DNA from: an uncultured Porphyromonadaceae bacterium
GTDB lineage: Bacteria; Bacteroidota; Bacteroidia; Bacteroidales; Muribaculaceae
NCBI GenBank assembly: GCA_947166165.1
Contig: CAMVDK010000001.1
Coordinates: 1-50,992 of the forward strand
Length of the DNA: 50,992 nucleotides
Reading direction: 5' to 3'
Shown: positions 10,689 through 49,165 of the stretch, piece after piece
Layout of the letters: each line of letters begins with the position of its first letter
Position numbering within the stretch: position 1 is the first letter of the stretch
Translations under genes and position numbers: made by a program
The notes under the pieces: generated by a model
Told to the model about the DNA's origin: nothing
Database searches by the model: none
The model's input: only the letters and a program-made list of their open reading frames with translations

Positions 10689-12407
10689 TCAGCGCTTGGG
10701 CAGAATATCCGGCTTGGGCTGCGGTTTGGGCTGCGGCTTGGGTTGCGGTTTGGGTTGCGGTTTGGGCTTGTGGTGGTGTTGGGTGGATTTTGGCTGCGCG
10801 GCGGGCGGGAGCAGCCTCACGGGCCGCTCGATTTCCTGCCCGTTGCTCATGGTGAGGATGGCAGTGCCATCGATGGCGGTGGTGAGTCCGTCGACACTGG
10901 TGGTGAGCGTGGTTTCCTGACCAGGCTCGATGGTGGCCACGCTGACGTTCAGGTTGAGTCCATCGGCATTCACGGCAAGGCTTGCCACGAGCGTGTCGCC
11001 GCTCTCGGGGTTGGCGATGGTGGCGCTCACGCGGTTTTCGGTGGGCTCGAGGATGTCGATCTCGGCCATGGTGTCGCGTGGCGGGGTGGCCTCGACGATG
11101 GCGGGGGTCACGGTGTGCTGCCACAGCAGCAGGTTGCAGTCGGCCACAACCTGATAGGTGAATCCGGCGGCCTTGCCGTCGGCTGGCTGCACGTCGGCCG
11201 GTGTGGGCTGATAGGCGAAGCGTGCGGTGCCGCCGGCAAAGTGCTGGTCGAGCGAGTCGATGCGCTCGCCGGTGGGGGTGAGCAGCCTGAAGTGCAGCGA
11301 GTCGCTGCGCAGCGTGGTGGGATAGGCGCATTCCACCTCGAGGGCGGTGATGGTGGTGTCGCCGCTGGCGTTGACCATGAATTCGATGGTGTCGGTGGCG
11401 GCGATGTGCTCAAAGTTGCCGTCCAGTCGGTGCAGCAGTCCCTGGGCGCTGCGCGGGTTGCGCGGCAGCATCACCACGCAGTAGTCGCCGTCGAAGTCCT
11501 CGGTGTCGTTGTTGAGCCAGAACTGCGCGGGCACAAACACCTGTTCCTGGCAGGAATAGCCGACCAGGGTGTCGCCCGGGGCGTAGTGTCGCTTGATGGG
11601 GCCGGGCTCGGGTTTGGCGGTTATCGAGCGCTTGGAGGGGTCTTCGGTGATTTCGATGGTGCGGATGGCGTCTTCGCTGTAGTCGCGCGTGTTGGGCAGC
11701 ATGTTCTTGGGGCGTTTCTCCTTGATCACCCGGCCGTCGGTGCCGATTTTCACCCAGCCGTTCTTGTTCTTGACAAAGGTGTGCCCATTCGAGAACGAGC
11801 AGGCTTCGGTGATTTTGCCGCCTTCCACCTTGAGGGGGGTGTGGGTGGTGTCCCAGTCGCGGGTGATGTAGAGCCACTCGCCGTCGTCGGTGCGCACGAG
11901 AGCGAGCCCGTCGCGGAAGGGTGTGGCCCAGCCGAACTGGCACTGCACCACCACGCGCCCGTCGATGTCGATGTAGCCGATGCGTCCCTGCTCGTTCTGC
12001 ACACACAGGGTACCTTCGGTGATGTAGGGCGTCTTGATGAAATATCCCCGCGGGAAGTTGACCACGCGGTGCCCGTCGTCGAACAGGAGCGCGCGTATTT
12101 CCTTCCCCATCTGCGTGGAGATGTCGATGATGGCGCTCACGCCCTGCCCCAGGTACTGGACGCCGAAGCTCACGCGCTCGCCGCGATAAAGCTCGTTGCC
12201 CTGCGCGTCGACGATGCCGGCGTAGCGCATCGAGTCGTCGTTGAAGATGTAGAGGCCGTGACGGAAGAATTGCAGTCCGTAGTACTGTGTGGGCGGGATG
12301 GCCCACTCCACGGTGTGGGCCTGCGCAGGCGCGCAGGCAGCCAGCATGGCCAGCAGCGCGGCCACACGGGCTAGGAAATGAAACTTGGAGTTATATCGGT
12401 CGGTCAT
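10689..12407 (-). CDS. Exported WG-repeat protein A with a PKPQ-repeat tail
   Basis: Signal peptide (..ALLAMLAACAPAQA), WG-type repeats (GRIGYIDIDGRVVVQCQFGWATPFRDGLALV), beta-rich C-terminal region; paralogue of 14443-16143. Start taken at ATG 12407. Confidence 0.75.
   Translation of the reverse strand: MTDRYNSKFHFLARVAALLAMLAACAPAQAHTVEWAIPPTQYYGLQFFRHGLYIFNDDSMRYAGIVDAQGNELYRGERVSFGVQYLGQGVSAIIDISTQMGKEIRALLFDDGHRVVNFPRGYFIKTPYITEGTLCVQNEQGRIGYIDIDGRVVVQCQFGWATPFRDGLALVRTDDGEWLYITRDWDTTHTPLKVEGGKITEACSFSNGHTFVKNKNGWVKIGTDGRVIKEKRPKNMLPNTRDYSEDAIRTIEITEDPSKRSITAKPEPGPIKRHYAPGDTLVGYSCQEQVFVPAQFWLNNDTEDFDGDYCVVMLPRNPRSAQGLLHRLDGNFEHIAATDTIEFMVNASGDTTITALEVECAYPTTLRSDSLHFRLLTPTGERIDSLDQHFAGGTARFAYQPTPADVQPADGKAAGFTYQVVADCNLLLWQHTVTPAIVEATPPRDTMAEIDILEPTENRVSATIANPESGDTLVASLAVNADGLNLNVSVATIEPGQETTLTTSVDGLTTAIDGTAILTMSNGQEIERPVRLLPPAAQPKSTQHHHKPKPQPKPQPKPQPKPQPKPDILPKR
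10711..10770 (-). repeat. 12-bp coding tandem repeat (PKPQ, about 4 units)
   Basis: GG(C/T)TTGGG(C/T)TGC units on the plus strand. Confidence 0.8.
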
Positions 12408-12610
12408 CAGAAGATTTGTTTGCTGTTTCACCCCGTTGACGGAGTTAGTCGGTTGATAAATAAGTGTCGAAAAAGGAGTTCTTAAAAAAGTTGATTTACA
12501 TCTGGAATAAATTCACATCCCCCACGCGGTGATGTTGTGGATTACAAAAGCGGATGGGCATCAAGGTGTCTTTTTAGTCAAGGCGGCTCAAAGGGTCAAG
12601 TGTATACTAT

Positions 12611-12788
12611 AGGTGGGTTCTATAAATTGCTGAAATGTAATGAATGGTTTTGGCCGCCTTGGGTTGCTTGCTGGCATCTTTTGTCTCAACTGCTTGAACC
12701 GTAGCCCGCTACTGCTTCGCGCAGCTTGAGCCAAAACCTGTTCAGCAATCAAGCCCAATTCGGCGCAAGCAATTTATAGAACCCACCT
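12611..12788. mobile_element. 178-bp MITE-like element, copy 2
   Basis: Perfect 20-bp TIR AGGTGGGTTCTATAAATTGC / GCAATTTATAGAACCCACCT; about 5 differences from 3133-3310. Confidence 0.88.
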
Positions 12789-12865
12789 TAATAAAGATTG
12801 ATTGCGATAGCAGCGATGTTCTTCTACTATTCGCTGGTGGCAAGGGTTGAAGTTGGCCGGTTCGC

Positions 12866-14425
12866 TTATTTCGGCAAACTGGTGTTTTTGCTTTCAATGA
12901 GTTGGATGAATGCTTCGGCATTCTTGGCCGTTGTGGTGTCGTGGGAGTGCTGTGCCAGATTGCGTGCGCGCTTGAAGAATTCGAGCGCTTCGGCATCGTT
13001 GGAGAAGCAGAGCAGCCGGTATCGGGCCAATTCCTGGGCGGCTTGCGTCATATGGGTCAGCAGCGTGGAGTCGTTGGTGCCCAAGGCGGTCAGCTTGTCG
13101 CCGATTTCCAAAATTTTCATCAAGGCGTCGTTGGCCCGCGTGATGTTGTTGTCCGATGCCGGGAAGGTGGCGGCGATGTCGGTGGGCAGTCCGAGCCGGG
13201 CGAGGTTTTTCCTTGCGTTTTCGTTGCCCATGGCGATGCCGAGTGTGCGCTTGCGGGGGTTGTAGATATCGGAGTCTTTGGTGTAATCTACGCCATAGGT
13301 GCGTGCAATTTCGTAGTAGGCGGGGATGTAGTTGAACATTCGCGCCACGGAGTCCATCATCTTCATGCCGTCGTGCGCCTGCACGGGGTCGTGGCTTGAT
13401 GCCAGCTGGAGGGCGCGTTGGAAGAGGGCCACGGTGTCGACGGGTTCGGCAACGGAGGTGGTGTTGCCTCGGTGTGCGAGCAGCGCGATGGCTGCTGCTG
13501 CCACCACCACGGCGGCGATGGCCAGGGTGGCCCACAGGCGAGTGCGGCTGGGTTTGGGCGGGAAGACGTGCTGCTGGGCGGCAAGCACGAGTTGCTCGGC
13601 GGTGGGTCGGCGCGCCGGGTCGCGGTTCAGGCAGGCGGCGATGAGTTTGGCTATGCTGGCGGGCACATCGCGGCCTATGAAGTTGAGCTTCACCTCGCCG
13701 TCGGGCTGCTGCTGTCCGCCGCTCTCGCCGAAGGGCACTTGACCGGTGATGAGCTCGAAGAGCGTGATGCCGAAGGCATAGATGTCGCTGGCGGGCTGCG
13801 GCTTGTCGTTGTCGAAGCGTTCGGGGGGCATGTAGGCTCGTGTGCCGCTGAAGTCGTGCTGCTGGTAGCGGTCGCGCGTCACGCTGATGCCGAAGTCGGT
13901 GATGGCGTAGTTGCCGCTGTCGTCGATGAGCACGTTGGCGGGCTTGATGTCCTGATGCACGATGGGCGGCTCCATGGCGTGGAGGTAGGCCAGTCCGGCC
14001 GCCACATCGCCTACGTATTTCCAGATGTCGTCGGCGGCTGTGAGGCGGCCGGCGAGCGTCTCGCTTGACCCCCGGCTGCAGTAGGGCATGACGAGGTAGG
14101 GTGTCTCGCCGGTGATGTCGAAGTGGGTGGGCTGGATGAGGTTGCTGTGGTGGCAGTTGTATACGATTTTGAACTCGTCGCGGAATCGCTGTTCGCCCTC
14201 GATGTCGAGTGCGTTCTGTGGCCGGTAGATTTTGATGGCAACCTGCATGGCCGTCGTCTCGTCGGGCTTGGCCTCGCCGAGGTTGTCGCGGCCCTCGATG
14301 GGGGTGTCGATGGTGTTGAGGTCGGCGGCGAGCCACACGTCGGCGCTGGCACCGGCGGTGCTCAGCGGCTTGAGGAGCCGGTAGTGTCCTGCAAAGATGT
14401 CGCCAGGTTTCAGGGGGGTGAGCAT
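12866..14425 (-). CDS. Membrane Ser/Thr protein kinase A (Hanks type, non-RD)
   Basis: VAIK, HQDIKPAN, DFG, GTRAYMPPE, SDIYAFG, then TM helix LWATLAIAAVVVAAAAIALLA and a helical extracytoplasmic domain. Start taken at MLTPLKPG (14425). Confidence 0.9.
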   Translation of the reverse strand: MLTPLKPGDIFAGHYRLLKPLSTAGASADVWLAADLNTIDTPIEGRDNLGEAKPDETTAMQVAIKIYRPQNALDIEGEQRFRDEFKIVYNCHHSNLIQPTHFDITGETPYLVMPYCSRGSSETLAGRLTAADDIWKYVGDVAAGLAYLHAMEPPIVHQDIKPANVLIDDSGNYAITDFGISVTRDRYQQHDFSGTRAYMPPERFDNDKPQPASDIYAFGITLFELITGQVPFGESGGQQQPDGEVKLNFIGRDVPASIAKLIAACLNRDPARRPTAEQLVLAAQQHVFPPKPSRTRLWATLAIAAVVVAAAAIALLAHRGNTTSVAEPVDTVALFQRALQLASSHDPVQAHDGMKMMDSVARMFNYIPAYYEIARTYGVDYTKDSDIYNPRKRTLGIAMGNENARKNLARLGLPTDIAATFPASDNNITRANDALMKILEIGDKLTALGTNDSTLLTHMTQAAQELARYRLLCFSNDAEALEFFKRARNLAQHSHDTTTAKNAEAFIQLIESKNTSLPK

Positions 14426-14442: not shown

Positions 14443-16143
14443 TTACTTTTTGATGTCGAAAAGTTCTCTGAACTCTTTGGCACCCATTTTGTTGTCGGCG
14501 TTTTGCTCGACGTGGCGCTTCTTGGTGTGTTCCTTGAGTTTGGGGTTGTAAGGGGTCATGGTGAGTTCGCGCGTGGTGGGCGACTGGCTGTTGCTCAGAG
14601 TGACCGTTGCGAGTGCTTTGAAGCTTCGGCCGACTGGAATGCTGAGTGCTAGCCGCTTGTTGGTGCCAGGAGGCACGGTCTGGGTGGTGGTGCCCAGTTC
14701 GTTGCCTTGCATGTCGGTGATGGAGAATGTGGCCGTGAGCGAGGCGTTGCCGTCGGGGTTGTTGACGTTGGTCCACACGCGCTGCTTGCCGCTGGCGGTG
14801 GTGCGCGCCTGATGAATGCCGCTGACGGTGATTTTCTTGGCATCGACCACATTCACCACTCGCACGTCTTCCCAGAGCAGCAGGTCGTGGTCGGCATAGA
14901 CCTGATAGGTGAGTTCGAGGTCCTCGCCGCTGGTGGCCAACTCGTCGGCCGTGGGCTGGTAGGTGAAGTGGCACACGCCGTCGGCATTGAACTCTTGGCT
15001 GGTTGCCGGCACCGGTTCGTCATTGGCACCGATGATCATGACGCGCAGTTTCGAAGCGTCGAGCGTGGTGGGGTAGTTGAACGAGGCTTTGAAGATGTCG
15101 TGGCTGCCCCGGTGCAGCACCGAGTCGGCGGCCAGGGGGGTGAAGTCGCCATCGATTTTGTGAAGCAGGCCCATGAGGGTATAGTCGTCGGCGATGTGCT
15201 GCGCCACCACCACATAGTCGCCGTCGAAGTTTTGCGCGGTGGAATTAAAGGCATCCTTATTGTAGAACTGGAAATCGAATTTGCTGAACTGGTAAGGGAT
15301 GAAAAGGTTGCCATCGATTTTGTATCCAATCAGGCCTTCGGCCGAATGGTCAATCTGGATGTTGCCGGGATTGGCGATGATTTTGCTTTCGTATTTTTCG
15401 GGATTCTGGTCTTTCTCATATCCGTGTATGTAGCGTTCGTCGAAACAGGAAGCATCGCTGTCGTAGTTCAAGTGCGACGGATGCGGGCGTTTTTTCCCTA
15501 ATGAGTCGATGCGCTGCCATTTTCCCTTCTGCAATACGTAGGTGTAGCCATGCAGAAACTGCTTGCCTTGGGTGATTTCTCCTCCGCTTATTTTGAGTGC
15601 TTTGTGGGTTTTGTCCCAGTCTTTGTGGATATACTTCATCGTTCCATCGTAGTCGGTGACTAGTGCGAATCCGTCGCGGAAAGGCTTGCCATCGAGGAAT
15701 TGGCAATTCACAACCATCTTGCCGTTCAGGTCCATATATCCCACTCGCCCCGATTTGTCTTGCACCGAAATGATGTCGCCGTCGGTGAAGTAATCGCCCT
15801 TCATGAAGAGTCCTGGCGGCACTCGGACCAGTTGTTGTTGGCGATTGAGCAGGCCGATGATTTCATGCCCGGCGTTTCGGTCGGTCACTAAGTATGTGAT
15901 ATCGTCGCCGAGATAAGCCGGATAATTGTCGCCAGTGCTGCTGAAGATGAGTTCGCCATTTGCATTGAATATGCCTGATAAGGGCTCGTCGTTGTAGGTG
16001 AATATATAATAGCCTGGCCGCAGAAAGTGAAGCCGCATGTCTTGCGGCAGGATGGCCCATTCCACGGTGTAGGCAGCGGCTGTAGTGGCCAAGGCCAAAG
16101 TGAGGCTCACGGCCAGCAGGTGCTTGATGCTGATTCGGTTCAT
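14443..16143 (-). CDS. Exported WG-repeat protein B
   Basis: Signal peptide MNRISIKHLLAVSLTLALATTAAA; GRVGYMDLNGKMVVNCQFLDGKPFRDGFALV; shares TVEWAI, FDGDY, YQPT and LLLW blocks with 10689-12407. Confidence 0.78.
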   Translation of the reverse strand: MNRISIKHLLAVSLTLALATTAAAYTVEWAILPQDMRLHFLRPGYYIFTYNDEPLSGIFNANGELIFSSTGDNYPAYLGDDITYLVTDRNAGHEIIGLLNRQQQLVRVPPGLFMKGDYFTDGDIISVQDKSGRVGYMDLNGKMVVNCQFLDGKPFRDGFALVTDYDGTMKYIHKDWDKTHKALKISGGEITQGKQFLHGYTYVLQKGKWQRIDSLGKKRPHPSHLNYDSDASCFDERYIHGYEKDQNPEKYESKIIANPGNIQIDHSAEGLIGYKIDGNLFIPYQFSKFDFQFYNKDAFNSTAQNFDGDYVVVAQHIADDYTLMGLLHKIDGDFTPLAADSVLHRGSHDIFKASFNYPTTLDASKLRVMIIGANDEPVPATSQEFNADGVCHFTYQPTADELATSGEDLELTYQVYADHDLLLWEDVRVVNVVDAKKITVSGIHQARTTASGKQRVWTNVNNPDGNASLTATFSITDMQGNELGTTTQTVPPGTNKRLALSIPVGRSFKALATVTLSNSQSPTTRELTMTPYNPKLKEHTKKRHVEQNADNKMGAKEFRELFDIKK

Positions 16144-16194: not shown

Positions 16195-17094
16195 TCATAG
16201 CAGACCGCACATTCGCATAAAGGCAAAGGAGACACGCTTGGCCAGGTGCCGACATCGCAGTGCGAGCGAGGCTTTGGGCTTGTCATCGTCGTCGCCGATG
16301 CAGCTGACGATGGCCACGGTGACGTTGTCGGGTGCTCCGGCGTCGAGGGCGGCTTGCAGCAGTGCGTTGCGGCAGGCGGTGGGGTGGGTGTAGTGGCGAT
16401 AGAGCAGCAGCTCGATTTCGGCGTCGTAGCAGCATCCGAACAGGCCGTCGCTGCACATCATGAGCATGTCGCCCGGCTGCAGGGCCACATCGGCAAAGTC
16501 GGGGTCGCTGGGGCAGTCGATGTCGCCGCAGCCGCGGGTGATGATGTGGTTGTCGGGGTGGTGGAAGGCTTTGCGGCGGGTGATTTCGCCCTTGTCGATG
16601 AGTTGCTGCACGTAGGAGTGGTCGTGGGTCACCTGCCTGAGTCCGCGGCCGGGGCTGAAGTGGTAGCACCGGCTGTCGCCGCACCAGGCCAGGTGTGCCA
16701 CCTGTGGCAGCAGCCAGCAGGCCACCACGGTGGTGCCCATGCCCTGTGTCTCGGGGCGCTCCTGGGCGTGGTGGAAGATGGTGTCGTCGGCCTGCTCGAT
16801 GATGGAGGCCAGCGCGCCTTGCACGGCCTCGTTGCCGCCGGTGTCGGCAGCGGGCTGCAGCAGTTGCTCGAAGGTGTCGATGGCCTTCTGCGAAGCCACC
16901 TCGCCGGCGTTCTGGCCGCCCAGACCGTCGGCCACAATCACCATCATCTGTCCGAGTGTGTGGTAGCCGTCGGAGTCCTGCGTGTCGCCGTGCAGCCAGT
17001 GGTGGGTGGCCACGTCGGTGCACACGGCCACCGCGTCCTCGTTGTTAGGACGCGCACACCCCGTGTGGGTGAGTGCTGAGATAAGGATTTTCAT
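16195..17094 (-). CDS. PP2C/PPM-family Ser/Thr protein phosphatase
   Basis: RPNNED, VADGLGG, GMGTT, GDSRCY, DHS, CSDGL, DNVT motifs. Confidence 0.93.
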   Translation of the reverse strand: MKILISALTHTGCARPNNEDAVAVCTDVATHHWLHGDTQDSDGYHTLGQMMVIVADGLGGQNAGEVASQKAIDTFEQLLQPAADTGGNEAVQGALASIIEQADDTIFHHAQERPETQGMGTTVVACWLLPQVAHLAWCGDSRCYHFSPGRGLRQVTHDHSYVQQLIDKGEITRRKAFHHPDNHIITRGCGDIDCPSDPDFADVALQPGDMLMMCSDGLFGCCYDAEIELLLYRHYTHPTACRNALLQAALDAGAPDNVTVAIVSCIGDDDDKPKASLALRCRHLAKRVSFAFMRMCGLL

Positions 17095-17119: not shown

Positions 17120-18676
17120 CTACAGGTAATGCTCGATGACTTGGATGTAGTTGTCGGCCAGCGAGGCGGTGGACTTGTCGCCCACGGTGATGGCGTGCTG
17201 CTTGGCCAGCCGGAAGTATTTCACGGCTTCGGCCTTGTCGTTGGTGCAGAACATGTTGTAGCAGCCCAGCATCCAGGCTGCGTCGAGCATCTGCCGGGCG
17301 TAGGCGGGGTCGTTGATGCTCAGGATGGTGAGGCAGGCGTTGTTGGCCTTGGTGTTGTGTTCGATCGACTTGGGGATGTCGCGGTCAAAGTCGCCGATGT
17401 CGCCCGCGCTAGCCTTGAGCTTCGCCAGGGTGTTGCGGGCGTTGATGTTGCCCAGTTCCACGCCCAGTGCCCGTTTGAGGCGGTTGTAGCGCGCCGAGTC
17501 TTGCACGAACACCATGCCATAGGTGCGCGCGATTTCGTAGTAGGCGGGCACGAAGTGGTAGCTTTGAGCGATGGTGTCGATTTGGCGGAATGCCTGCTCG
17601 ATGTCGGCGGGCCTGTCGCTGCGTGCCGCGGCGATGGCCTGGTCGAGCAGCACCTGCGGGTTGGCGGAGGCTTCTTGCCCGGCACCGTCGGCTGCACTGT
17701 GCTTGCCCTTGTGCCAGGCTAACAGGCCGATTCCAGCAGCCAGGACCACGGCGGCGAGGCTGGCCATGCCCCACTTGATGGCGCGGTTGCGCTTGGTGTG
17801 CAGCGGGAAGGTGCGCGCGCGGGCGGCCTGCACGATGAGGTCGGCCGTGGGGCGCTGCGCGGGGTCCTTGTCGAGGCAGGCGGCAATGAGCCGCTTGACA
17901 TCGGCCGCCACGGGTCGGTCGCCGTAGTTGAGCATCACGCGTCCGTCGGGCTGCGAGCTGCCGCCGTTCTCGCCATAGGGGATGTGGCCGGTGATGAGCT
18001 CGTAGAGCGTGGCCCCGAACGAGTAGATGTCGCTGGCGGGCTGCGGCACGTTGTCCTCGACGAAGCGCTCGGGGGCCATATAGGCCAGGGTGCCGCTCGA
18101 AAAGTCGAACAGGTCGCGGTGCCCGAGTTCGGAACTGATGCCGAAGTCGGTGATGGCGTAGTCGAAGTCGTCGGTCACCAGCACGTTGGCGGGCTTGATG
18201 TCCTGATGCACGATGGGCGGCCGCCGGGCGTGCAGATAGGCCAGTCCGGCAGCCACGTCCTCGATATACTTCCAGATGTGGTCGCCCGTCAGGTTGCCCA
18301 CGAGCAGCTCGGTGGAGCCGTGGGCGCAGAAGGGGAGCACCAGGTAGGGCGTGCCCTGCCAGATGTCGTAGTGGGTGGGCTGAATCAGGTTGCCGTGGTG
18401 GCAGTTGAACACGATTTTGAATTCTTCGCGGAATCGCTGTTCGCCTTCGATGTCGAGCGCGTTCTTTGGCCGGTAGATTTTAATGGCCACTTTGAGTCCG
18501 GTTTGCTCGATTTCGCTCGGAGTGCGCTCGGAGAGGGCGTCGTCGTCGTACGGCGACACGTCGACGGTGTTGAGGTCGATGGCGAGCCACACGTCGGCGG
18601 TGCCGCCGTCGGTGCTGAGTGCATCGAGCAGACGGTAGTGCCCGTCGAAGAGGTCGCCAGGATAAAGGTTCAGCAT
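17120..18676 (-). CDS. Membrane Ser/Thr protein kinase B (Hanks type, non-RD)
   Basis: VAIK, HQDIKPAN, DFG, GTLAYMAPE, TM WGMASLAAVVLAAGIGLLAW, C-terminal domain paralogous to kinase A (PAYYEIARTYG). Start taken at MLNLYPG (18676). Confidence 0.9.
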   Translation of the reverse strand: MLNLYPGDLFDGHYRLLDALSTDGGTADVWLAIDLNTVDVSPYDDDALSERTPSEIEQTGLKVAIKIYRPKNALDIEGEQRFREEFKIVFNCHHGNLIQPTHYDIWQGTPYLVLPFCAHGSTELLVGNLTGDHIWKYIEDVAAGLAYLHARRPPIVHQDIKPANVLVTDDFDYAITDFGISSELGHRDLFDFSSGTLAYMAPERFVEDNVPQPASDIYSFGATLYELITGHIPYGENGGSSQPDGRVMLNYGDRPVAADVKRLIAACLDKDPAQRPTADLIVQAARARTFPLHTKRNRAIKWGMASLAAVVLAAGIGLLAWHKGKHSAADGAGQEASANPQVLLDQAIAAARSDRPADIEQAFRQIDTIAQSYHFVPAYYEIARTYGMVFVQDSARYNRLKRALGVELGNINARNTLAKLKASAGDIGDFDRDIPKSIEHNTKANNACLTILSINDPAYARQMLDAAWMLGCYNMFCTNDKAEAVKYFRLAKQHAITVGDKSTASLADNYIQVIEHYL

Positions 18677-22859: not shown

Positions 22860-22870
22860 GATTGCGGGTT

Positions 22871-23401: not shown

Positions 23402-23417
23402 TGTCAACGAATGGGCG

Positions 23418-34753: not shown

Positions 34754-34777
34754 GCACCCGGGGCGGCTCGTGGCGCG

Positions 34778-36028: not shown

Positions 36029-36060
36029 GTTCGTCGGTGTTTTGGAGATGAGAGTGAAGT

Positions 36061-37125: not shown

Positions 37126-37149
37126 CGGTTAAGCGTTTTGATGAGAGGC

Positions 37150-40167: not shown

Positions 40168-40209
40168 GGCGGTGAATGGTGTTTGTGGCAGGCGGCGATT
40201 GTGGGGGTG

Positions 40210-40638: not shown

Positions 40639-40683
40639 ACGAATAGGGTTGAATTGCGGCCACCAAGCGGCCTTCTTTATGCA

Positions 40684-43423: not shown

Positions 43424-43831
43424 TCAGTTGTCGATGGTCCAGCGGTTGTTGTGACGGGCGTTGCCGATGGAAATCTCCTTGGCCGAGATGGTGAACTCCT
43501 CGTACTGCTGAGTCTCGTTCTTGTTGTCGTAGGTCTCGGCATACTCCACGAGGTAGCCCTCCTTGAAACTAAGTTTCTTCATCTCGCCGCCCTGGCGGTT
43601 GGGATAACTGATGCTGCCGCTCTTGCTCATGTAGGTGTCGATCATCCACTCGAGGATGTCGGTGTTGCCATCGTCGTTGGATTTCACCTTCACATAGATC
43701 TTGCCGCCGCGAGTGGTGCCGGTGGGCTGTCCCTCGACGTCGGTCTGCTGGTTGAGTTCGTAGCGAACGTACATCACTTCGCGTTCGGCGATGCCGTCGG
43801 CGTTCAAAGTCACGGTTCTTGTAGAAGCCAT
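43424..43831 (-). CDS. tssD: T6SS-iii tube protein TssD/Hcp, copy 1
   Basis: YELNQQTDVEGQPTGTTRGGKI...ILEWM...KSGSI...KKLSFKEGYLVEYAETY...FTISAKEISIG; directly follows tssC. Confidence 0.9.
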   Translation of the reverse strand: MASTRTVTLNADGIAEREVMYVRYELNQQTDVEGQPTGTTRGGKIYVKVKSNDDGNTDILEWMIDTYMSKSGSISYPNRQGGEMKKLSFKEGYLVEYAETYDNKNETQQYEEFTISAKEISIGNARHNNRWTIDN

Positions 43832-43905: not shown

Positions 43906-45300
43906 TCAGTCGCGGTTGGACACCTTGGGGTCGTCCCAGTTGGTGCCGGCGTCGCCCTTGTGGCCGGTGAGCTCGATGAGGAAGTTCTTGGCGGCGAAGA
44001 AGGGCTTGAGGTCGACCTGGATGTTGATGTCCTTGGTCTTGGGGTCCTGGTCGATTTTGATGAGTTTGTAGTTCTCGATGAGTTTGCCCGGGCCCTTGTA
44101 GTCGCTCAGGAAGTTGTGCACGGCCTCGGTGAGCTCGGCGCGCACCTGCGAGTCCCAGTTGGTGAAGGCCTCGTCGTTGAAGAAGTTCTGGAACACCTTG
44201 CCAATCCAGTCGAACACGCGCACGATGGGGTACTCCTGTAGTCCGAGCGTGGCGCCGTTGTAGAGCGAGCGGTTGCTGAAGGCCATCACGCGTCCGTCTT
44301 CCTCGACCATGGGCACCACGCCGAGGTCGATGAGCGCTGCGATTTCGCCCTTGCGCAACTTCATGCGTGCGCCCTTGGCGTTGTCGAGGGTGCCGTATTT
44401 CTTGCCGGCGGCACCCTGTGCGATGACCACCTCGTCGGTGTTGGTCATGCGTCCGGCCAGGGCGGCCGAGCCGGGAATGTAGAGGTTCTCGTCTTCTTCG
44501 GCCACCTCCGAGCGCTTGCGCCCGAGCAGGTAGTTGCAGGTCATCACCACATTGGCCATGTAGGCGTCCTGGCTCTGCATGTTGGCGTCGTCGAGGGTGT
44601 CCTTCAGGGTCTCGAAGTCGGGCATGTCGCTGAAGTCGGTCACCATGATCACCTTGTTGTTGTAGGCGGTCTTGCCCCACATGCGAATGGTGTCGGCCTC
44701 GCCGATGCTGCCAGGCATGACGAGCAGGCTGTAGTTGTTCTTCAGACTCAGGCGGTCGTAGTATTCCTCCAGTTCGTAGCGGATGGCCTTGGTGTCGTCG
44801 GAGTCGTGGGTGGCGAGTTCGCTCTTGTCGACGTTCATCAGCGTGAGGCAGTCCACCTTGCCCTGTCCGGCGTTGGCGAAGAAGGAGTCGAGCGAGCGGT
44901 AGGTGATTTCGAGGTCGCGGATCTCGTCGCGCAGGGTGAAGAGGTTCTGCTGGATGTTGGCCTCGGCCTTGGCGCACTTCTCCTTACACTGCTCGATGAC
45001 CTGCTGTGTGTCGCTTTGCTCGTTCTCGAGAATTTCGATCCACAACTCGAGTTCGTTGCGCAGTTTCTGGCGAGCATCGGCGAAGGTGGAGTCGTTGAGG
45101 AAGATGTTCTTGGCCGCTTTCTTTCGCGGGTCCATCTTGTCGACGCCACCAATCAGGTTCTTCACCATGGTGAAGCCGCCGAATTTCTTCAGGCCGTCGA
45201 TGCTGTCCTGCAGCACGGCGGCGGGGTTTTCGATTTTCGCCCGTTCGCGAAGCTCAACGGCCTCGCCCTGGGGCTGTTTTTGCATGTCTTCTGCTGCCAT
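43906..45300 (-). CDS. tssC: T6SS-iii sheath large subunit TssC (DUF5458)
   Basis: MDPRKKAAKNIFL, LEITYRSLDSFFAN, YDRLSLKNNYSLLVMPG, NVVMTCNYLLGR, MAFSNRSLYNGATLGLQEYPIVRVFDW, PFFAAKNFLIELTG. Confidence 0.92.
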   Translation of the reverse strand: MAAEDMQKQPQGEAVELRERAKIENPAAVLQDSIDGLKKFGGFTMVKNLIGGVDKMDPRKKAAKNIFLNDSTFADARQKLRNELELWIEILENEQSDTQQVIEQCKEKCAKAEANIQQNLFTLRDEIRDLEITYRSLDSFFANAGQGKVDCLTLMNVDKSELATHDSDDTKAIRYELEEYYDRLSLKNNYSLLVMPGSIGEADTIRMWGKTAYNNKVIMVTDFSDMPDFETLKDTLDDANMQSQDAYMANVVMTCNYLLGRKRSEVAEEDENLYIPGSAALAGRMTNTDEVVIAQGAAGKKYGTLDNAKGARMKLRKGEIAALIDLGVVPMVEEDGRVMAFSNRSLYNGATLGLQEYPIVRVFDWIGKVFQNFFNDEAFTNWDSQVRAELTEAVHNFLSDYKGPGKLIENYKLIKIDQDPKTKDINIQVDLKPFFAAKNFLIELTGHKGDAGTNWDDPKVSNRD

Positions 45301-45370: not shown

Positions 45371-45826
45371 TCAGTCGGCCTGTTCGAGCTCGGCGAGCAG
45401 GGCCTTGAGCGCGTTGGCGAGTTGGCCGCGCGCGGCGGCGTCTTTGAGCGCGTTGCGCAGGGTCTTGTTCTTCTCGAGCTGGCGCACCACGGCGTTGTAG
45501 GCGTTGATTTTGGCCTGCTCGCCGCTGAGCTGCTCGCTTTGGGCGATCAGGGCGTCGTCGTCGAAGTCTTTGAGCGAGCGGAAGTCGAAGTCCTCGCTCA
45601 CCGTGCCGCCTTCCTCGGTGTCGAGCTCCACGCCCTCCACGCGGGGCTGGAAGTGCTCAAACACATCGTTCATGCTCTTGGCCTTGAAGGGTTCGCGGTC
45701 TTCTTCGCTGGTGGGGGCATCGCTGGTGAACTGGTCCACGTAGAGCGTGCGGTTCTGGGGGAACTCGATGATGCCGTCTTGTGCCTCGGCATCGAGCACC
45801 TTGGTGATGACTGTTTTTCTTGCCAT
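45371..45826 (-). CDS. tssB: T6SS-iii sheath small subunit TssB
   Basis: IEFPQNRTLYVDQFTSDAP, VFEHFQPRV...FDFRSLKDF; directly upstream of tssC. Confidence 0.85.
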   Translation of the reverse strand: MARKTVITKVLDAEAQDGIIEFPQNRTLYVDQFTSDAPTSEEDREPFKAKSMNDVFEHFQPRVEGVELDTEEGGTVSEDFDFRSLKDFDDDALIAQSEQLSGEQAKINAYNAVVRQLEKNKTLRNALKDAAARGQLANALKALLAELEQAD

Positions 45827-45899: not shown

Positions 45900-48155
45900 T
45901 CAATCCGGGGTGTCGATGTCCCAGGTGATGGCGTTCTGCTGCTCGTCGAATCGCATGGTGACGGTGTCGCCGGGGTTGATGTCGCCGGCAATGATGAGCT
46001 TAGACAGCGGCCGGCGGATCTCCTTGCGGATGATGCCCAGGATGGGGCGTGCGCCGTAGTGCGCGTTGAAGCCCACGCGGGTGACGTACTGCCGGGCGGT
46101 GTCGTCGATCACGAGCGAGATGTTCTGCTCGGTGAGCGCCTTGAGCAGGTTCTTGATGTGGATGTCGAAGATGCGGTCGATCATGGCGGGCGTGATGGGC
46201 GAGAAGGGCACAATCTCGGTGAGGCGCGCCAGGAACTCGGGCCGGAACTGGCCCTGCATCACCTCGAGCATCTGGTCGTGGGTGGGCACCTGGTTCTGCT
46301 CGAAGGCTTTGAAGATGTAGTCGCTGCCTATGTTGCTGGTGAAGATGATGAGCGCGTTGCTGAAGTCGCCCACCCGGCCCAGGCGGTCGTGCAGCTTGCC
46401 CTCGTCGAGAATCTGCAGGAAGAGGTCGAACACCGAGCGGTGGGCCTTCTCGATTTCGTCGAAGAGCACCACGCTGTAGGGGTGCTGGCGGATCTGGTTG
46501 ACGAGCAGTCCGCCCTCTTCGTAGCCCACGTAGCCCGGAGGGGCACCGTAGAGCAGCGCCACGGAGTGCTCCTCCTTGTACTCGCTCATGTCGAAGCGCA
46601 GGATGTTGCTCTCGTCGTTGAACAGGAACTCGGCCAGGGCCTTGGCGAGCTCGGTCTTTCCGGTGCCGGTGGGGCCGAGGAAGAAGAACGAGCCCATGGG
46701 CTGTCCCTTCTTGTTGAGTCCCGAGCGTGACTCGTAGATGGCGTCGAGGATGCTCTTGATGGCGTGGTTCTGTCCCACCACGCGGCGGTGGAGAATCTCG
46801 TCGGCTCCGGTGAGCCGCTCGCGCTCCTCGCTCTGGATGTTGCCCATGGGTATGCCAGTCATCTTGGCCACCACGTCGCGCACGTCGTCCTTGCGCAGGC
46901 GCTGGTCGGCGGGGGCTTCGGCACCGGTGAGGGCGGCCAGCTCGCCGGCCACCTTCACGGCGGCCATGGCGCGGTCGAGCAGGTCGAGGGCCGACGAGGG
47001 CAAGTGCCGCTCGGGCATGTAGCGTTTGGCCAGGCGCACGATCTCGGCAGGCACTTCGCCATCGATGGGCAGGTGGTGGAAGGCTTCATAGCCCTCGCAC
47101 TTGCTCTTTACGATGTCGATGGCCAGTTGCTCGCCCGGCTCGTCGAGGGCGATTTTCTCGAAATAGGCTGTCAGCTCGCGGTCCTTCTCGATGTCCTTGG
47201 TGAAGCCGTCGACGGTGGCGGTGAGCAGCACCTGCAGGGTGCCTTGCTGCAGCAGCCGCTTGAGGCCCGGCAGGATGCCCGAGAGCACCGACTGCTTGTC
47301 CTCCACGCGGTGGAAGTTTTCAATCACCAGCAGCGGCTGTGGCATGGCGGCCAGCCCCTCGGCCACCTGCTTGAAGCGGTCTTCGATTTCGCCCTTGTAG
47401 GTCACGCCCTGGCTGAGCATGATCAGGTCGAGCTCGTGGGGGTGGATGGCCTCTAGCGAGGCGGGCATCTGGTGGGCGGCTATGCGCCGGCACAGCTCGC
47501 CAATGAGGCTGGTCTTTCCCACGCCGGTCTCGCCCACGATGAGCACGTTGGCGCGGTCCTTGCGCGCTAGCACCTCGACGATGGAGCGGATCTTGTCGTC
47601 GAAGCCGATCATGGGCTGCTGTGGCACATCGGCCAGCAGCGAGGTGCACAGTCCGGCCTGTGCGGCAGCCAGCGGTGCGGCGGCTGGAGCGGCCTGCCGG
47701 GTGGCTGTGGCGGCGGGGCCGTCGCCCAGGGTGGCCAGCACGGTGGCGGGCTGCAGGGGCATGGTCTTGAGCTGCTCGTAGCTGAAGCCCACGCCGGGCG
47801 AGAGCACGGCGGCGAGCAGGCACACCACGTTGGGCTCGGCGATGCCTCGCTCGTCGGCGAGCGTCATGGCCTGCTTGACCACACTGCGGCTCGCGTCCGA
47901 GAGCTCGGCGCTCTTCATGCCGTAGGGCGAGCGCGGGCACTGCTGCATGCGCATGTCGGCCCAGTCGACCAGGTAGTAGTAGTCGGAGGCCAGGGTGTCT
48001 TCGATGAAATTGTACAGCCCCACGTTCTTGTGCAGCATGGCGCGCAGCAGGTGGGCGGGTTCAATCTGTGGGCACTTGTTGTCGGTGGCAAACGATTGCG
48101 CGATGTGCAGCAGTCCGCCAGGCAGCTGCTGCAGGTAGTCAAGATATTTGCTCAT
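45900..48155 (-). CDS. tssH: Clp/Hsp100 AAA+ ATPase TssH (ClpV-like)
   Basis: Clp-N domain, D1 GETGVGKT and GVTYKGEIEDR, D2 GPTGTGKT, RFDMSEYKEEHS, GAPPGYVGYEEGG, VVLFDEIEKAH; no ClpB middle domain; directly precedes tssB. Confidence 0.88.
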   Translation of the reverse strand: MSKYLDYLQQLPGGLLHIAQSFATDNKCPQIEPAHLLRAMLHKNVGLYNFIEDTLASDYYYLVDWADMRMQQCPRSPYGMKSAELSDASRSVVKQAMTLADERGIAEPNVVCLLAAVLSPGVGFSYEQLKTMPLQPATVLATLGDGPAATATRQAAPAAAPLAAAQAGLCTSLLADVPQQPMIGFDDKIRSIVEVLARKDRANVLIVGETGVGKTSLIGELCRRIAAHQMPASLEAIHPHELDLIMLSQGVTYKGEIEDRFKQVAEGLAAMPQPLLVIENFHRVEDKQSVLSGILPGLKRLLQQGTLQVLLTATVDGFTKDIEKDRELTAYFEKIALDEPGEQLAIDIVKSKCEGYEAFHHLPIDGEVPAEIVRLAKRYMPERHLPSSALDLLDRAMAAVKVAGELAALTGAEAPADQRLRKDDVRDVVAKMTGIPMGNIQSEERERLTGADEILHRRVVGQNHAIKSILDAIYESRSGLNKKGQPMGSFFFLGPTGTGKTELAKALAEFLFNDESNILRFDMSEYKEEHSVALLYGAPPGYVGYEEGGLLVNQIRQHPYSVVLFDEIEKAHRSVFDLFLQILDEGKLHDRLGRVGDFSNALIIFTSNIGSDYIFKAFEQNQVPTHDQMLEVMQGQFRPEFLARLTEIVPFSPITPAMIDRIFDIHIKNLLKALTEQNISLVIDDTARQYVTRVGFNAHYGARPILGIIRKEIRRPLSKLIIAGDINPGDTVTMRFDEQQNAITWDIDTPD

Positions 48156-48214
48156 ATCGTTTTATGATTGATGTGATTTAGGAGTGACGGCGGGGCGGCG
48201 CTTGGCCGGGTGGG

Positions 48215-48892
48215 CTATGGCTCTTGGTCCACTTTCTCGAGGAATGCCGTGGGGACGTAGGCCGTGGTGACGAGCCCGACACCGGCCACGTGGATCACCA
48301 CGCGCTGCTGTCCGGCCACGCGGGCCACGAGTCCCTCCACACCGCAGAAGGCGCCCTGGGTCACGCGCACGCGGTCGCCGCTGCGGAAGTGGCATCGTCC
48401 CGGAGCCACAAGCATGATGTGCTCGTTGTGGCTGCGGGTGGTGAGGATGAAGTTCTCCATCTCGCGCTCGGGAATCACCAGCGGTGGGTTGAAGCCGTCG
48501 GCGTTGCGGTCGAGGCGGTTGTAGTAGAACTCGAGGTAGTCGAGTTGGGGCGTGTGGCGCACGAGCTGCCGGGCGTCGGCTTCGGTGACGTAGGCAAACA
48601 CCATGTTGGGGATGAGCGACTCCAGACACAGCCGCAGCTTGTTGCCTAAGCGGCGCTTGGTGTAGCGCCGGGCCACGTAGGCGTAGAAGCCTCGCGCCAC
48701 AATCTGTTCGGCGGCCTGCTGCTCGCGGCCATAGGTGGCCCGCAGGGCGAACCACTGTTTGCCAGGCGCGGGCGCATACCTCACGGACACCCCTTCGCCG
48801 CCCACGGCCTCGGGGAGGGCATTGAGGACGGCCTCAATGCTGCGAGGAGTTTCGCTTCCTCGGAGGGTGTCCACATTAGACAATGTGACCAT
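48215..48892 (-). CDS. UpxY-family NusG-paralogue transcription antiterminator
   Basis: WFALRATYGRE, SLIPNMVFAY, NPPLVIPEREMENFI, KOW motif GDRVRVTQGAFCGVEGLVARV; start codon uncertain. Confidence 0.88.
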   Translation of the reverse strand: MVTLSNVDTLRGSETPRSIEAVLNALPEAVGGEGVSVRYAPAPGKQWFALRATYGREQQAAEQIVARGFYAYVARRYTKRRLGNKLRLCLESLIPNMVFAYVTEADARQLVRHTPQLDYLEFYYNRLDRNADGFNPPLVIPEREMENFILTTRSHNEHIMLVAPGRCHFRSGDRVRVTQGAFCGVEGLVARVAGQQRVVIHVAGVGLVTTAYVPTAFLEKVDQEP

Positions 48893-49134
48893 GCTGCACC
48901 ACTTGTAGCTATGGTGTCGGCAGCGAGTAGCTAGTAGAATCGGCTATAATCCGACACGCATCCTTCAGAGCGTCAACTCGGTGACGCTTTTCCTGGGCAG
49001 TTCTCATTCCATCCTTCACCAGCCTGATTTCTGGTCAAGGTGCAGTGATAGGTGGGTTCAAAAATCGGGTTTCCGAGCCAAAATTGAGGGCAGAACTCAG
49101 TTTCACCCCCTACCGAAGCCCGTGTTTCCGTGTG

Positions 49135-49165
49135 CAAAGTTATGATTTTTTGTTATATTGGCCAA
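49135..49165 (-). promoter_or_regulatory. Probable promoter of the UpxY-T6SS operon
   Basis: Minus-strand TAACTTTG (49142-49135) with TTGG 19 bp upstream, in an AT-rich patch; gives a leader of about 235 nt before the UpxY ORF. Confidence 0.65.

What the first reader, a model, noticed from the sequence alone, without database searches (positions are those of the whole stretch)
10689..49142. Candidate new system: a T6SS-iii locus with an embedded ubiquitin-like cascade and a kinase/phosphatase module
Seen: 27 co-oriented genes in the order upxY-tssH-tssB-tssC-tssD-tssD-vgrG-PAAR-tle1-imm-hyp-Ubl-E2-hyp-hyp-JAMM-RING/FHA-E1-tssG-tssK-tssE-tssF-PGbd-GH73-kinase-PP2C-WG-kinase-WG. The ubiquitin block splits the T6SS core (tube, sheath and spike upstream; baseplate downstream), and E1 ends 25 bp before tssG. 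Established: the Bacteroidales T6SS architectures GA1-GA3 do not, as far as I know, carry E1/E2/RING/JAB genes, and characterised bacterial Ubl systems (CBASS Cap2/Cap3, Bil) act in antiphage defence. Inference: Ubl conjugation controls assembly, firing, cargo loading or recycling of a contractile injection machine. Because Bil ubiquitinates a phage tail component and the T6SS is tail-derived, the machine itself (VgrG, baseplate, sheath) is a plausible substrate.
Basis: partly seen in the sequence, partly recalled or inferred. Interest (0 to 1): 0.96.

Follow-up and report, generated by a model that had tools for sequence, protein, structure and literature searches.

The report
Ubiquitin cascade built into a T6SS
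This gut Bacteroidales type VI secretion gene cluster has no detectable copy of the usual membrane-anchor genes and instead carries a conserved, complete ubiquitin-style tagging set whose ligase and de-tagging enzyme are predicted membrane proteins, so this bacterial nano-weapon is likely anchored or switched by reversible ubiquitin-like tagging, which is untested.

Summary
In detail: 29 co-oriented genes (not 27), with Ubl-E2-hyp2-hyp3-JAMM-RING-E1 between the PAAR/effector genes and tssG. It is not a one-genome accident: 78 of 80 GTDB loci with this E2 have T6SS core genes within 10 kb, in fixed order, and all catalytic residues and RING ligands are invariant. In one draw of 301 Bacteroidaceae genomes, 13 carry the E2, always near a tssC, and none of the 273 tssC-negative genomes do. 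These systems have no detectable TssN, TssP or TssR (the essential T6SS-iii membrane complex). The RING and JAMM proteins are predicted inner-membrane proteins with periplasmic domains. Best model: a membrane ubiquitination cycle that stands in for the anchor or gates baseplate docking; conjugation and substrate are untested. Against: two sister T6SS loci lack both anchor and cascade, and the module also occurs without a T6SS (twice beside an eCIS). Kinases are accessory. RNA and complex-prediction tests were inconclusive. Not described in the papers searched; a published T6SS-iii search model requires an anchor gene and would skip these loci. This scan has noted the same system before on other DNA.

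The parts
48215..48892 (-). upxY, NusG-like antiterminator heading the operon
   Evidence: NF033644 111.6 bits, cut-off 100; upstream of tssH in 5 of 7 relatives checked
45900..48155 (-). tssH/ClpV ATPase
   Evidence: AAA_2, ClpB_D2; 67-72% identical in relatives
45371..45826 (-). tssB small sheath
   Evidence: VipA weak hit
43906..45300 (-). tssC large sheath, in a clade apart from TssN-bearing systems
   Evidence: PF17541 447.7 bits; tree
43424..43831 (-). tssD/Hcp 1
   Evidence: PF17642
42801..43262 (-). tssD/Hcp 2
   Evidence: PF17642
40684..42699 (-). vgrG spike
   Evidence: Phage_base_V, Phage_GPD; TIGR01646 above cut-off
40210..40638 (-). PAAR-like DUF4280
   Evidence: PF14107
37150..40167 (-). 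Tle1-like antibacterial phospholipase effector (variable cargo)
   Evidence: PF09994; GFSRG motif at 287; BLAST hit in 21 of 80 loci
36061..37125 (-). DUF2931 immunity-like protein
   Evidence: PF11153; hit in 57 of 80 loci
35162..36028 (-). hyp1, signal-peptide protein, not conserved
   Evidence: 1 of 55 full-flank loci
34778..35101 (-). Ubl, 107 aa, beta-grasp fold, ends ...PIAG with no extension
   Evidence: AlphaFold pLDDT 86; Foldseek and VIA matches to ubiquitin-like domains, Z up to 10.4; terminal Gly in 81 of 86 ORF hits
33986..34654 (-). E2 (UBC fold), HPN motif and Cys128
   Evidence: invariant in 84 of 84; PDB matches are eukaryotic E2s such as UBE2K, E about 1e-4
32709..33989 (-). 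hyp2, conserved signal-peptide protein, predicted periplasmic, Cys-rich C-terminus
   Evidence: family profile vs window E 4.7e-37; position conserved
31303..32712 (-). hyp3, conserved predicted single-pass inner-membrane protein with cytoplasmic tail ending ...TISI
   Evidence: family profile vs window E 2.7e-66; hydrophobic segments 5-23 and 319-337
28986..31259 (-). predicted membrane-anchored JAMM/MPN+ deubiquitinase: signal peptide, periplasmic domain, TM 330-348, cytoplasmic JAMM
   Evidence: E457, H528, H530, S538, D541 invariant in 79 of 79; hydropathy
26587..28989 (-). predicted membrane RING-H2-type E3: signal peptide, periplasmic vWA, TM1, RING (C422-C462), six more TM helices, C-terminal FHA-like domain lacking the pThr-binding residues
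   Evidence: 8 ligands invariant in 81 of 81; zf-RING_16 in 29 and zf-RING_2 in 20 of 59 members; model pLDDT 86; vWA matches
25390..26580 (-). standalone ThiF/MoeB-family E1: GxGxxG, Zn site C168/C171/C261/H264, predicted catalytic C187
   Evidence: PF00899 E 8.5e-52; C187 in 78 of 78
24477..25364 (-). tssG baseplate, 25 bp after E1
   Evidence: family profile hits canonical TssG
23418..24410 (-). tssK baseplate connector; no tssN beside it
   Evidence: TIGR03353 E 1e-9, below cut-off; VasE weak
22871..23401 (-). tssE
   Evidence: family profile; the ORF at this position in G233 hits GPW_gp25
21033..22859 (-). tssF
   Evidence: family profile hits canonical TssF
19816..21006 (-). 3-TM protein, putative peptidoglycan-binding by position only
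   Evidence: no Pfam hit; proteins at this position elsewhere have PG_binding_1
18735..19775 (-). GH73-LysM cell-wall hydrolase with signal peptide
   Evidence: PF01832, PF01476; downstream of tssF in 9 of 10 window-clade loci checked
17120..18676 (-). membrane Ser/Thr kinase 1 (accessory)
   Evidence: Pkinase; catalytic motifs present
16195..17094 (-). PP2C phosphatase (accessory)
   Evidence: NF033484 206 bits, cut-off 230
14443..16143 (-). WG-repeat secreted protein 1
   Evidence: PF14903 weak
12866..14425 (-). membrane Ser/Thr kinase 2, paralogue of kinase 1
   Evidence: Pkinase; 74-90% DNA identity blocks with kinase 1
10689..12407 (-). WG-repeat secreted protein 2, behind a 458-bp gap; may not be co-transcribed
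   Evidence: PF14903; gap

Best explanation
The seven-gene block (Ubl, E2, hyp2, hyp3, JAMM, RING, E1) is a conserved part of a T6SS lineage in which TssN, TssP and TssR are not detectable, and it likely works as an inner-membrane ubiquitination switch that stands in for that anchor and gates baseplate docking. Inferred steps: E1 adenylates the Ubl's terminal Gly and passes it via Cys187 to E2 Cys128. The membrane RING protein, whose periplasmic vWA domain would assemble with or sense hyp2, hyp3 and the JAMM ectodomain, would then direct transfer to a lysine on the cytoplasmic face of the scaffold or on the connector TssK. That would supply, reversibly, the beta-grasp docking surface that canonical systems carry as a fused domain of TssN. 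The membrane JAMM would remove the tag to release or reset the baseplate. Shown: gene content, order, invariant catalytic residues, predicted folds, co-inheritance, no detectable TssN/P/R. Inferred: catalysis (about 0.85), action on the T6SS (about 0.7), an anchor or docking role (about 0.5), TssK or hyp3 as the substrate (about 0.3).
For: 78 of 80 GTDB loci have T6SS core genes within 10 kb, 54 of 55 with full flanks, in fixed order; 38 of 39 full-flank metagenome loci. One draw of 301 Bacteroidaceae genomes: E2 in 13, each 6-17 kb from a tssC; 0 of 273 tssC-negative genomes; all 13 genomes with canonical tssC carry TssN. TssN over cut-off in 0 of 54 module genomes; TssR in 0 of 60 non-canonical vs 13 of 13 canonical genomes; full-length TssP in 0 of 37 vs 11 of 11. 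A second gene order (E1-tssGKEF-Ubl-E2-two ORFs-RING, no JAMM) in a deep TssC clade keeps the cascade after rearrangement. E1, RING, JAMM and hyp3 divergence tracks tssG (rho 0.74-0.79) and E1 tracks tssC (0.70), while the immunity gene does not (0.12). Catalytic residues invariant. RING and JAMM are the conserved multi-domain membrane proteins of the core. TssN has a beta-grasp cytoplasmic domain like EccD and co-purifies TssK (PMC10781749, passages); the Ubl's top VIA match is the EccD5 Ubl domain, tied with ubiquitin. A noncovalent Ubl controls T7SSb assembly (PMC12637312, abstract and passages).
Against: G655 and G645, the sister clade on the TssC tree, have the tube, sheath, spike and baseplate genes but no E2, no RING protein and no TssN or TssR, so a locus of this lineage can persist without either anchor. 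The module also occurs without T6SS-iii: G051, G470, G922 and G1103 have no TssC, and L204, L231 and L233 have none in the fetched flanks. No sequence homology between Ubl and TssN (hhalign 0.6%) or between module proteins and TssN/Q/O/P/R candidates. No outer-membrane lipoprotein counterpart of TssR was identified. JAMM is missing from 4 loci of the second architecture. E2 and Ubl divergence tracks tssC poorly (rho 0.18; loci were chosen by E2 similarity). Most genomes are incomplete MAGs (the window's is 83% complete) and related genomes are not independent. The bacterial inner membrane has no proteasome partner, and no conjugate has been seen.
Confidence: 0.5

Rival explanations
1. Regulation only. 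The module is a portable envelope-sensing ubiquitination circuit (periplasmic sensor, membrane E3, membrane DUB) that switches T6SS expression, assembly or firing, but is not the physical anchor; the machine docks by other means.
For: Free-standing copies exist among FHA/trypsin/WG signalling genes (L051, L231) and in other Bacteroidia. In G922 and G1103 it sits head-to-head with an eCIS locus, and eCIS particles are released rather than membrane-anchored (recalled). G655 and G645 keep the machine genes without it.
Against: TssN/P/R were not found in any module-bearing T6SS genome except G685, which also has a canonical T6SS. A pure regulator would be expected to occur with canonical anchors too; 0 of 14 canonical tssC loci have the E2 nearby.
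Confidence: 0.27
2. Cargo tagging. The cascade marks effectors, VgrG or Hcp for loading, or contracted sheath for TssH/ClpV recycling.
For: Ubl-E2 follow the effector/immunity region directly in the main architecture; lambdoid tail-assembly clusters carry a Ubl and a JAB (PMC1779556, passages); the eCIS-linked copies lie next to PAAR and eCIS-core toxin genes.
Against: In the second architecture Ubl-E2 lie after tssF, away from the cargo; module divergence tracks tssG better than vgrG (E2-vgrG rho 0.36); large periplasmic domains on the E3 and DUB are not explained.
Confidence: 0.09
3. Defence. A Bil-like system that modifies incoming phage tails or foreign injection machines and travels with the T6SS as a conflict island.
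For: Characterised bacterial E1/E2/Ubl/DUB operons are antiviral (10.1101/2023.09.26.559546, passages); membrane sensors could detect envelope puncture (inference).
Against: No PADLOC match for Ubl, E2, JAMM or RING, and only generic ThiF-domain hits for E1; genes are interleaved with and overlap T6SS core genes in two fixed orders; E2, Ubl and E1 are as conserved as tssC (mean identity 0.73-0.79 vs 0.78), unlike fast-evolving defence genes (recalled).
Confidence: 0.09
4. No conjugation. The Ubl is a noncovalent YukD-like adaptor or a ThiS/MoaD-type sulfur carrier, and the enzymes do something else.
For: Free-standing homologues of the Ubl match YukD PF08817 (3 of 3 tested, at or above about the cut-off); E1 is ThiF/MoeB-like; YukD acts noncovalently.
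Against: Terminal Gly in 81 of 86 ORF hits, E1 Cys 78 of 78, E2 Cys 84 of 84, JAMM motif 79 of 79 and RING ligands 81 of 81 are all kept; sulfur-carrier pathways have no E2.
Confidence: 0.05

Closest known systems
T6SS-iii of Bacteroidota, architectures GA1-GA3 (Coyne 2016, PMC4714493; membrane complex TssNQOPR, Bongiovanni 2024, PMC10781749)
   Same: Homologous TssB, C, D, E, F, G, H, K, VgrG and PAAR-like genes; Tle1-type effector and immunity gene in a variable region.
   Different: No detectable TssN, TssP or TssR; tssG and tssK are adjacent with no tssN between; separate TssC clades (416-454 and 339-354 bits vs 715-759); UpxY rather than TetR at the head; seven-gene ubiquitination block; no 'ubiquitin', 'ThiF' or 'JAB' in the GA paper's supplements.
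Eukaryote-like Ub/E1/E2/small RING/Rpn11 operon of Ca. Caldiarchaeum subterraneum, and predicted bacterial RING-E3 operons (Burroughs, Iyer and Aravind 2011; not held, recalled and seen only as a citation)
   Same: Free Ubl, standalone E1 with catalytic Cys, UBC-type E2 with HPN motif, RING, Rpn11-like JAMM; the Ubl's top Foldseek hit is Caldiarchaeum ubiquitin.
   Different: Here RING and JAMM are large membrane proteins with periplasmic domains, the Ubl ends in a single Gly, and the set is embedded in a secretion-machine operon. Whether the 2011 paper lists the free-standing Bacteroidetes form could not be checked.
BilABCD type I/II, Bub and CBASS Cap2/Cap3
   Same: E1, E2, Ubl and JAB deubiquitinase; single conserved terminal Gly.
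   Different: Those have no RING E3 in the passages read and act in antiviral defence or stress; no PADLOC hit for the E2, JAMM, RING or Ubl here.
T7SSb YukD/EsaB and T7SSa EccD; TssN cytoplasmic domain
   Same: A beta-grasp protein used in assembling a secretion membrane complex; fold match to the EccD5 Ubl domain Z 10.4, rmsd 2.5, 82 aligned; homologues hit YukD.
   Different: Those are noncovalent or fused and have no E1, E2, E3 or DUB.
Eukaryotic membrane-embedded RING E3s such as Hrd1, MARCH, RNF43 (recalled)
   Same: Luminal or extracellular domain, TM bundle and cytoplasmic RING-H2.
   Different: Architecture analogy only; no homology outside the RING was tested; vWA and FHA domains differ.

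Membership tests
T6SS-iii (GA1-GA3 type) | Tube, sheath, spike, baseplate and ClpV genes homologous to Bacteroidota Tss proteins | tested here: met
T6SS-iii (GA1-GA3 type) | Membrane complex TssNQOPR, with TssN beside tssK/tssG | tested here: not met
   TssN 0 of 54, TssR 0 of 60, full-length TssP 0 of 37, with canonical controls 13, 13 of 13 and 11 of 11; own genome negative for TssN, TssR, TssO (83% complete). TssQ was not searched genome-wide; TssO only in the own genome.
T6SS-iii (GA1-GA3 type) | TssC in the GA clade | tested here: not met
   separate clades with 100/100 support for the canonical group
T6SS-iii (GA1-GA3 type) | Hcp secretion and contact-dependent killing | not testable with these tools
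   needs culture experiments
Canonical E1-E2-RING E3-DUB ubiquitination cascade | beta-grasp modifier with free C-terminal Gly | tested here: met
Canonical E1-E2-RING E3-DUB ubiquitination cascade | E1 with adenylation motifs and catalytic Cys; E2 with HPN and Cys; JAMM E-HxH-S-D motif | tested here: met
   invariant columns
Canonical E1-E2-RING E3-DUB ubiquitination cascade | RING with 8 zinc ligands | tested here: met
   C-x2-C-x13-C-x-H-x2-H-x2-C-x7-C-x6-C in the window, ligands in 81 of 81; last pair spaced x6, not x2; first pair lost in 4 free-standing homologues
Canonical E1-E2-RING E3-DUB ubiquitination cascade | Isopeptide conjugation to a target lysine | not testable with these tools
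   needs biochemistry
BilABCD / CBASS type II | Family-specific E1/E2/JAB profiles, CD-NTase or Bil operon context, no RING | tested here: not met
   PADLOC: no hit for E2, JAMM, Ubl, RING; E1 hits only over the ThiF domain; no CD-NTase among the window's Pfam hits
BilABCD / CBASS type II | Phage protection | not testable with these tools
   needs plaque assays
Phosphothreonine-reading FHA / TPP regulation | FHA Arg (GR) and Ser (SxxH) for pThr binding | tested here: not met
   position 724 is M/K/A and 741 is A in 79 of 81
TssN homologue (split or diverged) | Sequence homology of Ubl or the RING TM bundle to TssN | tested here: not met
   hhalign probabilities 0.6% and 1.1% on shallow profiles; the shared fold alone does not show descent

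The most novel reading that the evidence does not exclude
A new T6SS subtype, about as frequent among sampled Bacteroidaceae species as the canonical kind, in which a membrane-embedded RING ligase and a membrane deubiquitinase replace the TssNQOPR anchor and dock the baseplate by reversible covalent ubiquitination: the first secretion machine run by its own E1-E2-E3-DUB cycle. The same module would have been recruited separately to eCIS loci in another Bacteroidia order, making ubiquitination a general control for contractile injection machines.
Probability: 0.45. Interest if true: 0.96.

Novelty: new variant of a known kind. Interest (0 to 1): 0.87.

Why it matters
It challenges two current views: that every Bacteroidota T6SS uses the TssNQOPR membrane complex, and that complete bacterial ubiquitination pathways serve phage defence. 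The published T6SS-iii detection model requires at least one of tssN/O/P/Q/R (supplement of PMC10781749), so this lineage would be invisible to it, although it made up 13 of 30 tssC loci in a draw of 301 Bacteroidaceae genomes. It offers a bacterial RING E3 pathway with a membrane ligase, a membrane DUB and a short list of candidate substrates, in cultured strains (Xylanibacter muris PMUR, Bacteroides hominis Tbg-374). That makes the open question of what bacterial RING E3s do directly testable, and bears on the origin of membrane-anchored ubiquitin signalling and on antagonism in rumen, mouse and human gut communities.

Tried and rejected
Complex prediction of RING residues 400-800 with TssK gave 'no answer' (score 0.00, mark 0.32); it is not evidence either way. 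Transcription test in the X. muris locus: contigs from four RNA libraries cover much of the locus and one spans the E1/tssG junction, but a prophage-like control stretch was covered as well (25, 15 and 29 of 30 bins in three of the same runs), so DNA carry-over cannot be excluded: inconclusive. The window's own expression was not tested. Ubl as a split-off TssN domain, and hyp2/hyp3/JAMM/RING as diverged TssQ/O/P/R: no similarity. Four weak TssN hits in module genomes: the one scanned is DsbD, and the other three match the same profile stretch in ORFs of similar size. Three weak TssP hits in non-canonical genomes cover only part of the profile. Kinase-to-FHA signalling: rejected as the core mechanism. 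Phage origin: only 2 weak E2-like matches in IMG/VR, with no other module gene. The protein atlas gave no result for hyp2 or hyp3. The sigma-70 scan is ill-suited to Bacteroidales; it found one minus-strand terminator-like site in 22000-41000, inside the tle gene, and none at the imm-Ubl or E1-tssG junctions, weak evidence only. Whether the two module-bearing TssC clades form one clade is unresolved without an outgroup. Burroughs 2011 could not be read.

Full report
What is in the window. The window is one whole contig of a 2.9-Mb, 83% complete genome. Its closest named E2 relatives are labelled Muribaculaceae (P0009; L009). From 48892 down to 10689 lie 29 minus-strand genes: upxY, tssH, tssB, tssC, tssD, tssD, vgrG, PAAR-like, tle1, immunity, hyp1, Ubl, E2, hyp2, hyp3, JAMM, RING, E1, tssG, tssK, tssE, tssF, a 3-TM protein, GH73-LysM, kinase, PP2C, WG, kinase, WG. 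Gaps are -4 to 161 bp except 458 bp before the last gene, and E1 ends 25 bp before tssG. GC3 of the ubiquitin genes (0.76-0.91) lies within the range of the other genes of the locus (0.72-0.93). Housekeeping genes flank the locus, and tblastn found no second copy of the T6SS structural genes or of Ubl, E2, JAMM or RING elsewhere in the assembly.

The enzymes look intact. Across related loci the E2 HPN motif and Cys128 are kept in 84 of 84, E1 Cys187 and the zinc ligands in 78 of 78, the JAMM residues E457, H528, H530, S538 and D541 in 79 of 79, and eight RING ligands in 81 of 81. Of 86 Ubl ORF hits, 81 end in Gly (ORFs touching locus ends were dropped). The Ubl model (pLDDT 86) is a beta-grasp fold; its top Foldseek match is Caldiarchaeum ubiquitin, and its top VIA matches are the EccD5 Ubl domain (Z 10.4, rmsd 2.5, 82 aligned), tied with ubiquitin and others. 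The E2 profile finds eukaryotic E2 structures. The RING protein model (pLDDT 86) shows a signal helix, a vWA domain, one TM helix, the RING, six more long helices in the hydrophobic region and a C-terminal FHA-like domain; this places RING and FHA in the cytoplasm and vWA in the periplasm (inference from topology). The FHA lacks the Arg and Ser that bind phosphothreonine (residue roles recalled). JAMM and hyp3 each have a signal peptide and one TM segment, and hyp2 a signal peptide only. The window's hyp2 and hyp3 belong to families conserved at this position.

The link to the T6SS is conserved. A GTDB scan with the E2 alignment confirmed 106 loci and returned the best 80, from Muribaculaceae, Prevotella-like, Bacteroides, Alistipes-, Barnesiella- and Cryptobacteroides-labelled genomes. 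Of these, 78 have a T6SS core gene within 10 kb; 54 of the 55 with full flanks do, and all 55 have Ubl, JAMM, RING and E1 in the window's order. A metagenome scan gave 38 of 39 full-flank loci, 58 of 80 overall; these are redundant strains, not independent events. A less biased test used one draw of 301 Bacteroidaceae genomes (its centre, G475, is included by construction). TssC was found in 28 genomes (30 loci), TssN over cut-off in 13, and the E2 in 13. The 14 high-scoring tssC loci lie in exactly the 13 TssN genomes. Of the 16 other tssC loci, 13 have the E2 6-17 kb away, one is on a contig that ends after PAAR (G585), and two lack the module (G655, G645). None of the 273 tssC-negative genomes has the E2. 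G685 carries both kinds of system. Four loci show a second order, E1-tssGKEF-Ubl-E2-two ORFs-RING, without JAMM; they group with G233, which has the window's order, in a deep TssC clade. Pairwise divergence of E1, RING, JAMM and hyp3 follows tssG (rho 0.74-0.79) and E1 follows tssC (0.70) across the variable cargo region, whereas the immunity gene does not (0.12); E2 and Ubl follow tssC poorly (0.18). The distribution is narrow: 3 of 400 other genomes drawn evenly over the order and 2 of 330 over the phylum.

The canonical anchor is not found. PMC10781749 (passages, section 11 and supplement passages read) shows that TssNQOPR are essential in B. fragilis, that TssN has a beta-grasp cytoplasmic domain and co-purifies TssK, and that tssN lies between tssK and tssG. 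Here tssG and tssK are adjacent. TssN scored over cut-off in 0 of 54 module-bearing genomes (50 of my 80 loci plus 4 others). TssR was found in 0 of 60 non-canonical against 13 of 13 canonical genomes, and full-length TssP in 0 of 37 against 11 of 11. TssO was searched only in the window's genome and TssQ not at all. Most genomes are MAGs, but the set includes the complete B. hominis chromosome. No module protein resembles a Tss membrane protein by sequence. The paper's statement that all T6SS-iii carry the complex rests on a model with tssN/O/P/Q/R as mandatory genes, at least one required, which would exclude these loci.

Results against a simple replacement model. G655 and G645 are sister to the window's clade and have sheath, tube, spike, baseplate, kinase and WG genes, but no E2, RING, TssN or TssR; an M23 peptidase gene sits between PAAR and tssG in G655. 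They may be decaying, anchored otherwise, or proof that the cascade is dispensable. The module also exists alone: G051 (96% complete) and G470 have no TssC, and L204, L231 and L233 have no T6SS gene in the fetched flanks. On a quick E1 tree G470 nests among T6SS-linked copies, suggesting loss of the machine, while G051, L204, L233, G922 and G1103 form a separate clade, in four of which the first RING ligand pair is lost. In G922 and G1103 (one genus of another order, 100% complete, no TssC) the module lies head-to-head with PAAR, eCIS-core toxin genes and an eCIS structural cluster. This is one event, not two, but it is a second tie to a contractile machine; G051 has an eCIS-like cluster on another contig.

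The kinase module is accessory. GH73 plus at least one kinase follow tssF in 9 of 10 window-clade loci checked. No kinase ORF was recognised next to G233 or the second-order loci inspected, and kinases are present in the two loci without the cascade.

Mechanism. I commit to a membrane ubiquitination switch at the point where the baseplate meets the envelope. The RING, JAMM, hyp3 and hyp2 proteins are the conserved envelope proteins inside the core of a machine that has no detectable TssNQOPR, they co-diverge with the baseplate genes, and E1 stays next to tssG in both gene orders. Canonical systems present a fused beta-grasp domain on TssN, and T7SSb uses a free noncovalent Ubl for assembly (PMC12637312, abstract and passages); a conjugated, removable Ubl would give the same kind of surface under enzymatic control. 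A lead for substrate choice: E2 (76 of 84), hyp3 (53 of 81) and TssK (31 of 31) in relatives end in Ile after a flexible linker, whereas the canonical TssK proteins seen end in ..NILD or ..SFIG and those of G655/G645 in ..KKHH; the window's own TssK ends in Val. This is inherited similarity and only a hint. None of the catalytic or binding steps was shown here.

Novelty. Ten full-text searches were run. Three conjunctions returned nothing. The others returned 3 to 37 papers, whose titles and abstract starts do not describe this locus; only 30 of 37 were listed. Passages were read from PMC4714493 (no 'ubiquitin' or 'kinase' in the main text; no ThiF, ubiquitin or JAB in 5 supplements), PMC11601603, the Bil preprint, PMC11354881, PMC1779556, PMC8195603 and PMC3482391; none places such a cascade in a T6SS. 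Burroughs et al. 2011 on prokaryotic RING operons was not available and may list the free-standing form; most subscription journals and bioRxiv supplements are not covered. Eight earlier notes of this scan report the same system in other genomes; they are not independent evidence and I retested their main claims. Verdict: a real, widespread, apparently undescribed T6SS architecture; the gene-level facts are strong and the mechanism is a prediction.

Noticed in passing
G922:C65:67500-113000 (L296, L289, L290) and G1103:C11:568500-634000 (L299, L291, L292): A homologous module (nSTAND1 ATPase, E1, YukD-like Ubl, E2, membrane JAMM, vWA-TM-FHA protein with a degenerate RING) sits head-to-head with PAAR, eCIS-core toxin genes and an eCIS structural cluster in genomes without T6SS-iii TssC.
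   Followed up: partly
G655:C6:26000-48000 (L164, L165) and G645:C33:21000-44000 (L166, L167): T6SS loci of the sister clade with no TssN or TssR and no ubiquitin module; they carry kinases, WG proteins, a PG-binding protein and (G655) an M23 peptidase. How or whether they anchor is unexplained.
   Followed up: partly
G051:C685:1500-27000 (L008, L092): Free-standing module followed by an SrfC-like (Virul_Fac) protein, a subtilase, a second JAB protein and ORFs whose N-termini resemble the Ubl; its Ubl has a 4-residue extension after the Gly.
   Followed up: partly
L051:469-18317 and L231: Muribaculaceae copies of the module without T6SS genes, inside a cluster of FHA-trypsin, FHA, WG-repeat, LysM and lipoprotein genes.
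   Followed up: partly
window 33986-34654, 31303-32712, 23418-24410 and homologues: E2, hyp3, TssK and some TssE proteins of these loci end in a short tail with a terminal Ile; E2s and the ATPase of the free-standing form end in K-x-I-x-I-like tails. Possibly a shared docking motif.
   Followed up: partly
window 12611-12788: Perfect 21-nt inverted repeat 136 nt apart in the gap before the last WG gene, MITE-like; a 12-nt piece of it recurs upstream of upxY.
   Followed up: no
window 9659-10603: PD-(D/E)XK Rpn-family transposase-like gene directly after the locus, in the same orientation.
   Followed up: no
G685:C23 and G685:C35/C17: One genome carries both a canonical TssN-type T6SS and the JAMM-less ubiquitin-type T6SS.
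   Followed up: partly
L014, L020, L061, L063, L220, L222, L260: Some loci have two Ubl-like ORFs in tandem; a few extra copies do not end in Gly.
   Followed up: no
L073:17418-18161 and L051:16313-17083: An extra signal-peptide protein of about 250 aa with no Pfam hit is inserted between RING and E1 in some loci.
   Followed up: no
window 34655-34777: GC-rich stem-loop-like sequence without a U tail between Ubl and E2; could favour the Ubl part of the transcript. Not folded.
   Followed up: no
PMC10781749 supplementary file 4: The published MacSyFinder T6SS-iii model lists tssN/O/P/Q/R as mandatory with at least one required, so anchor-less loci cannot be detected by it.
   Followed up: yes
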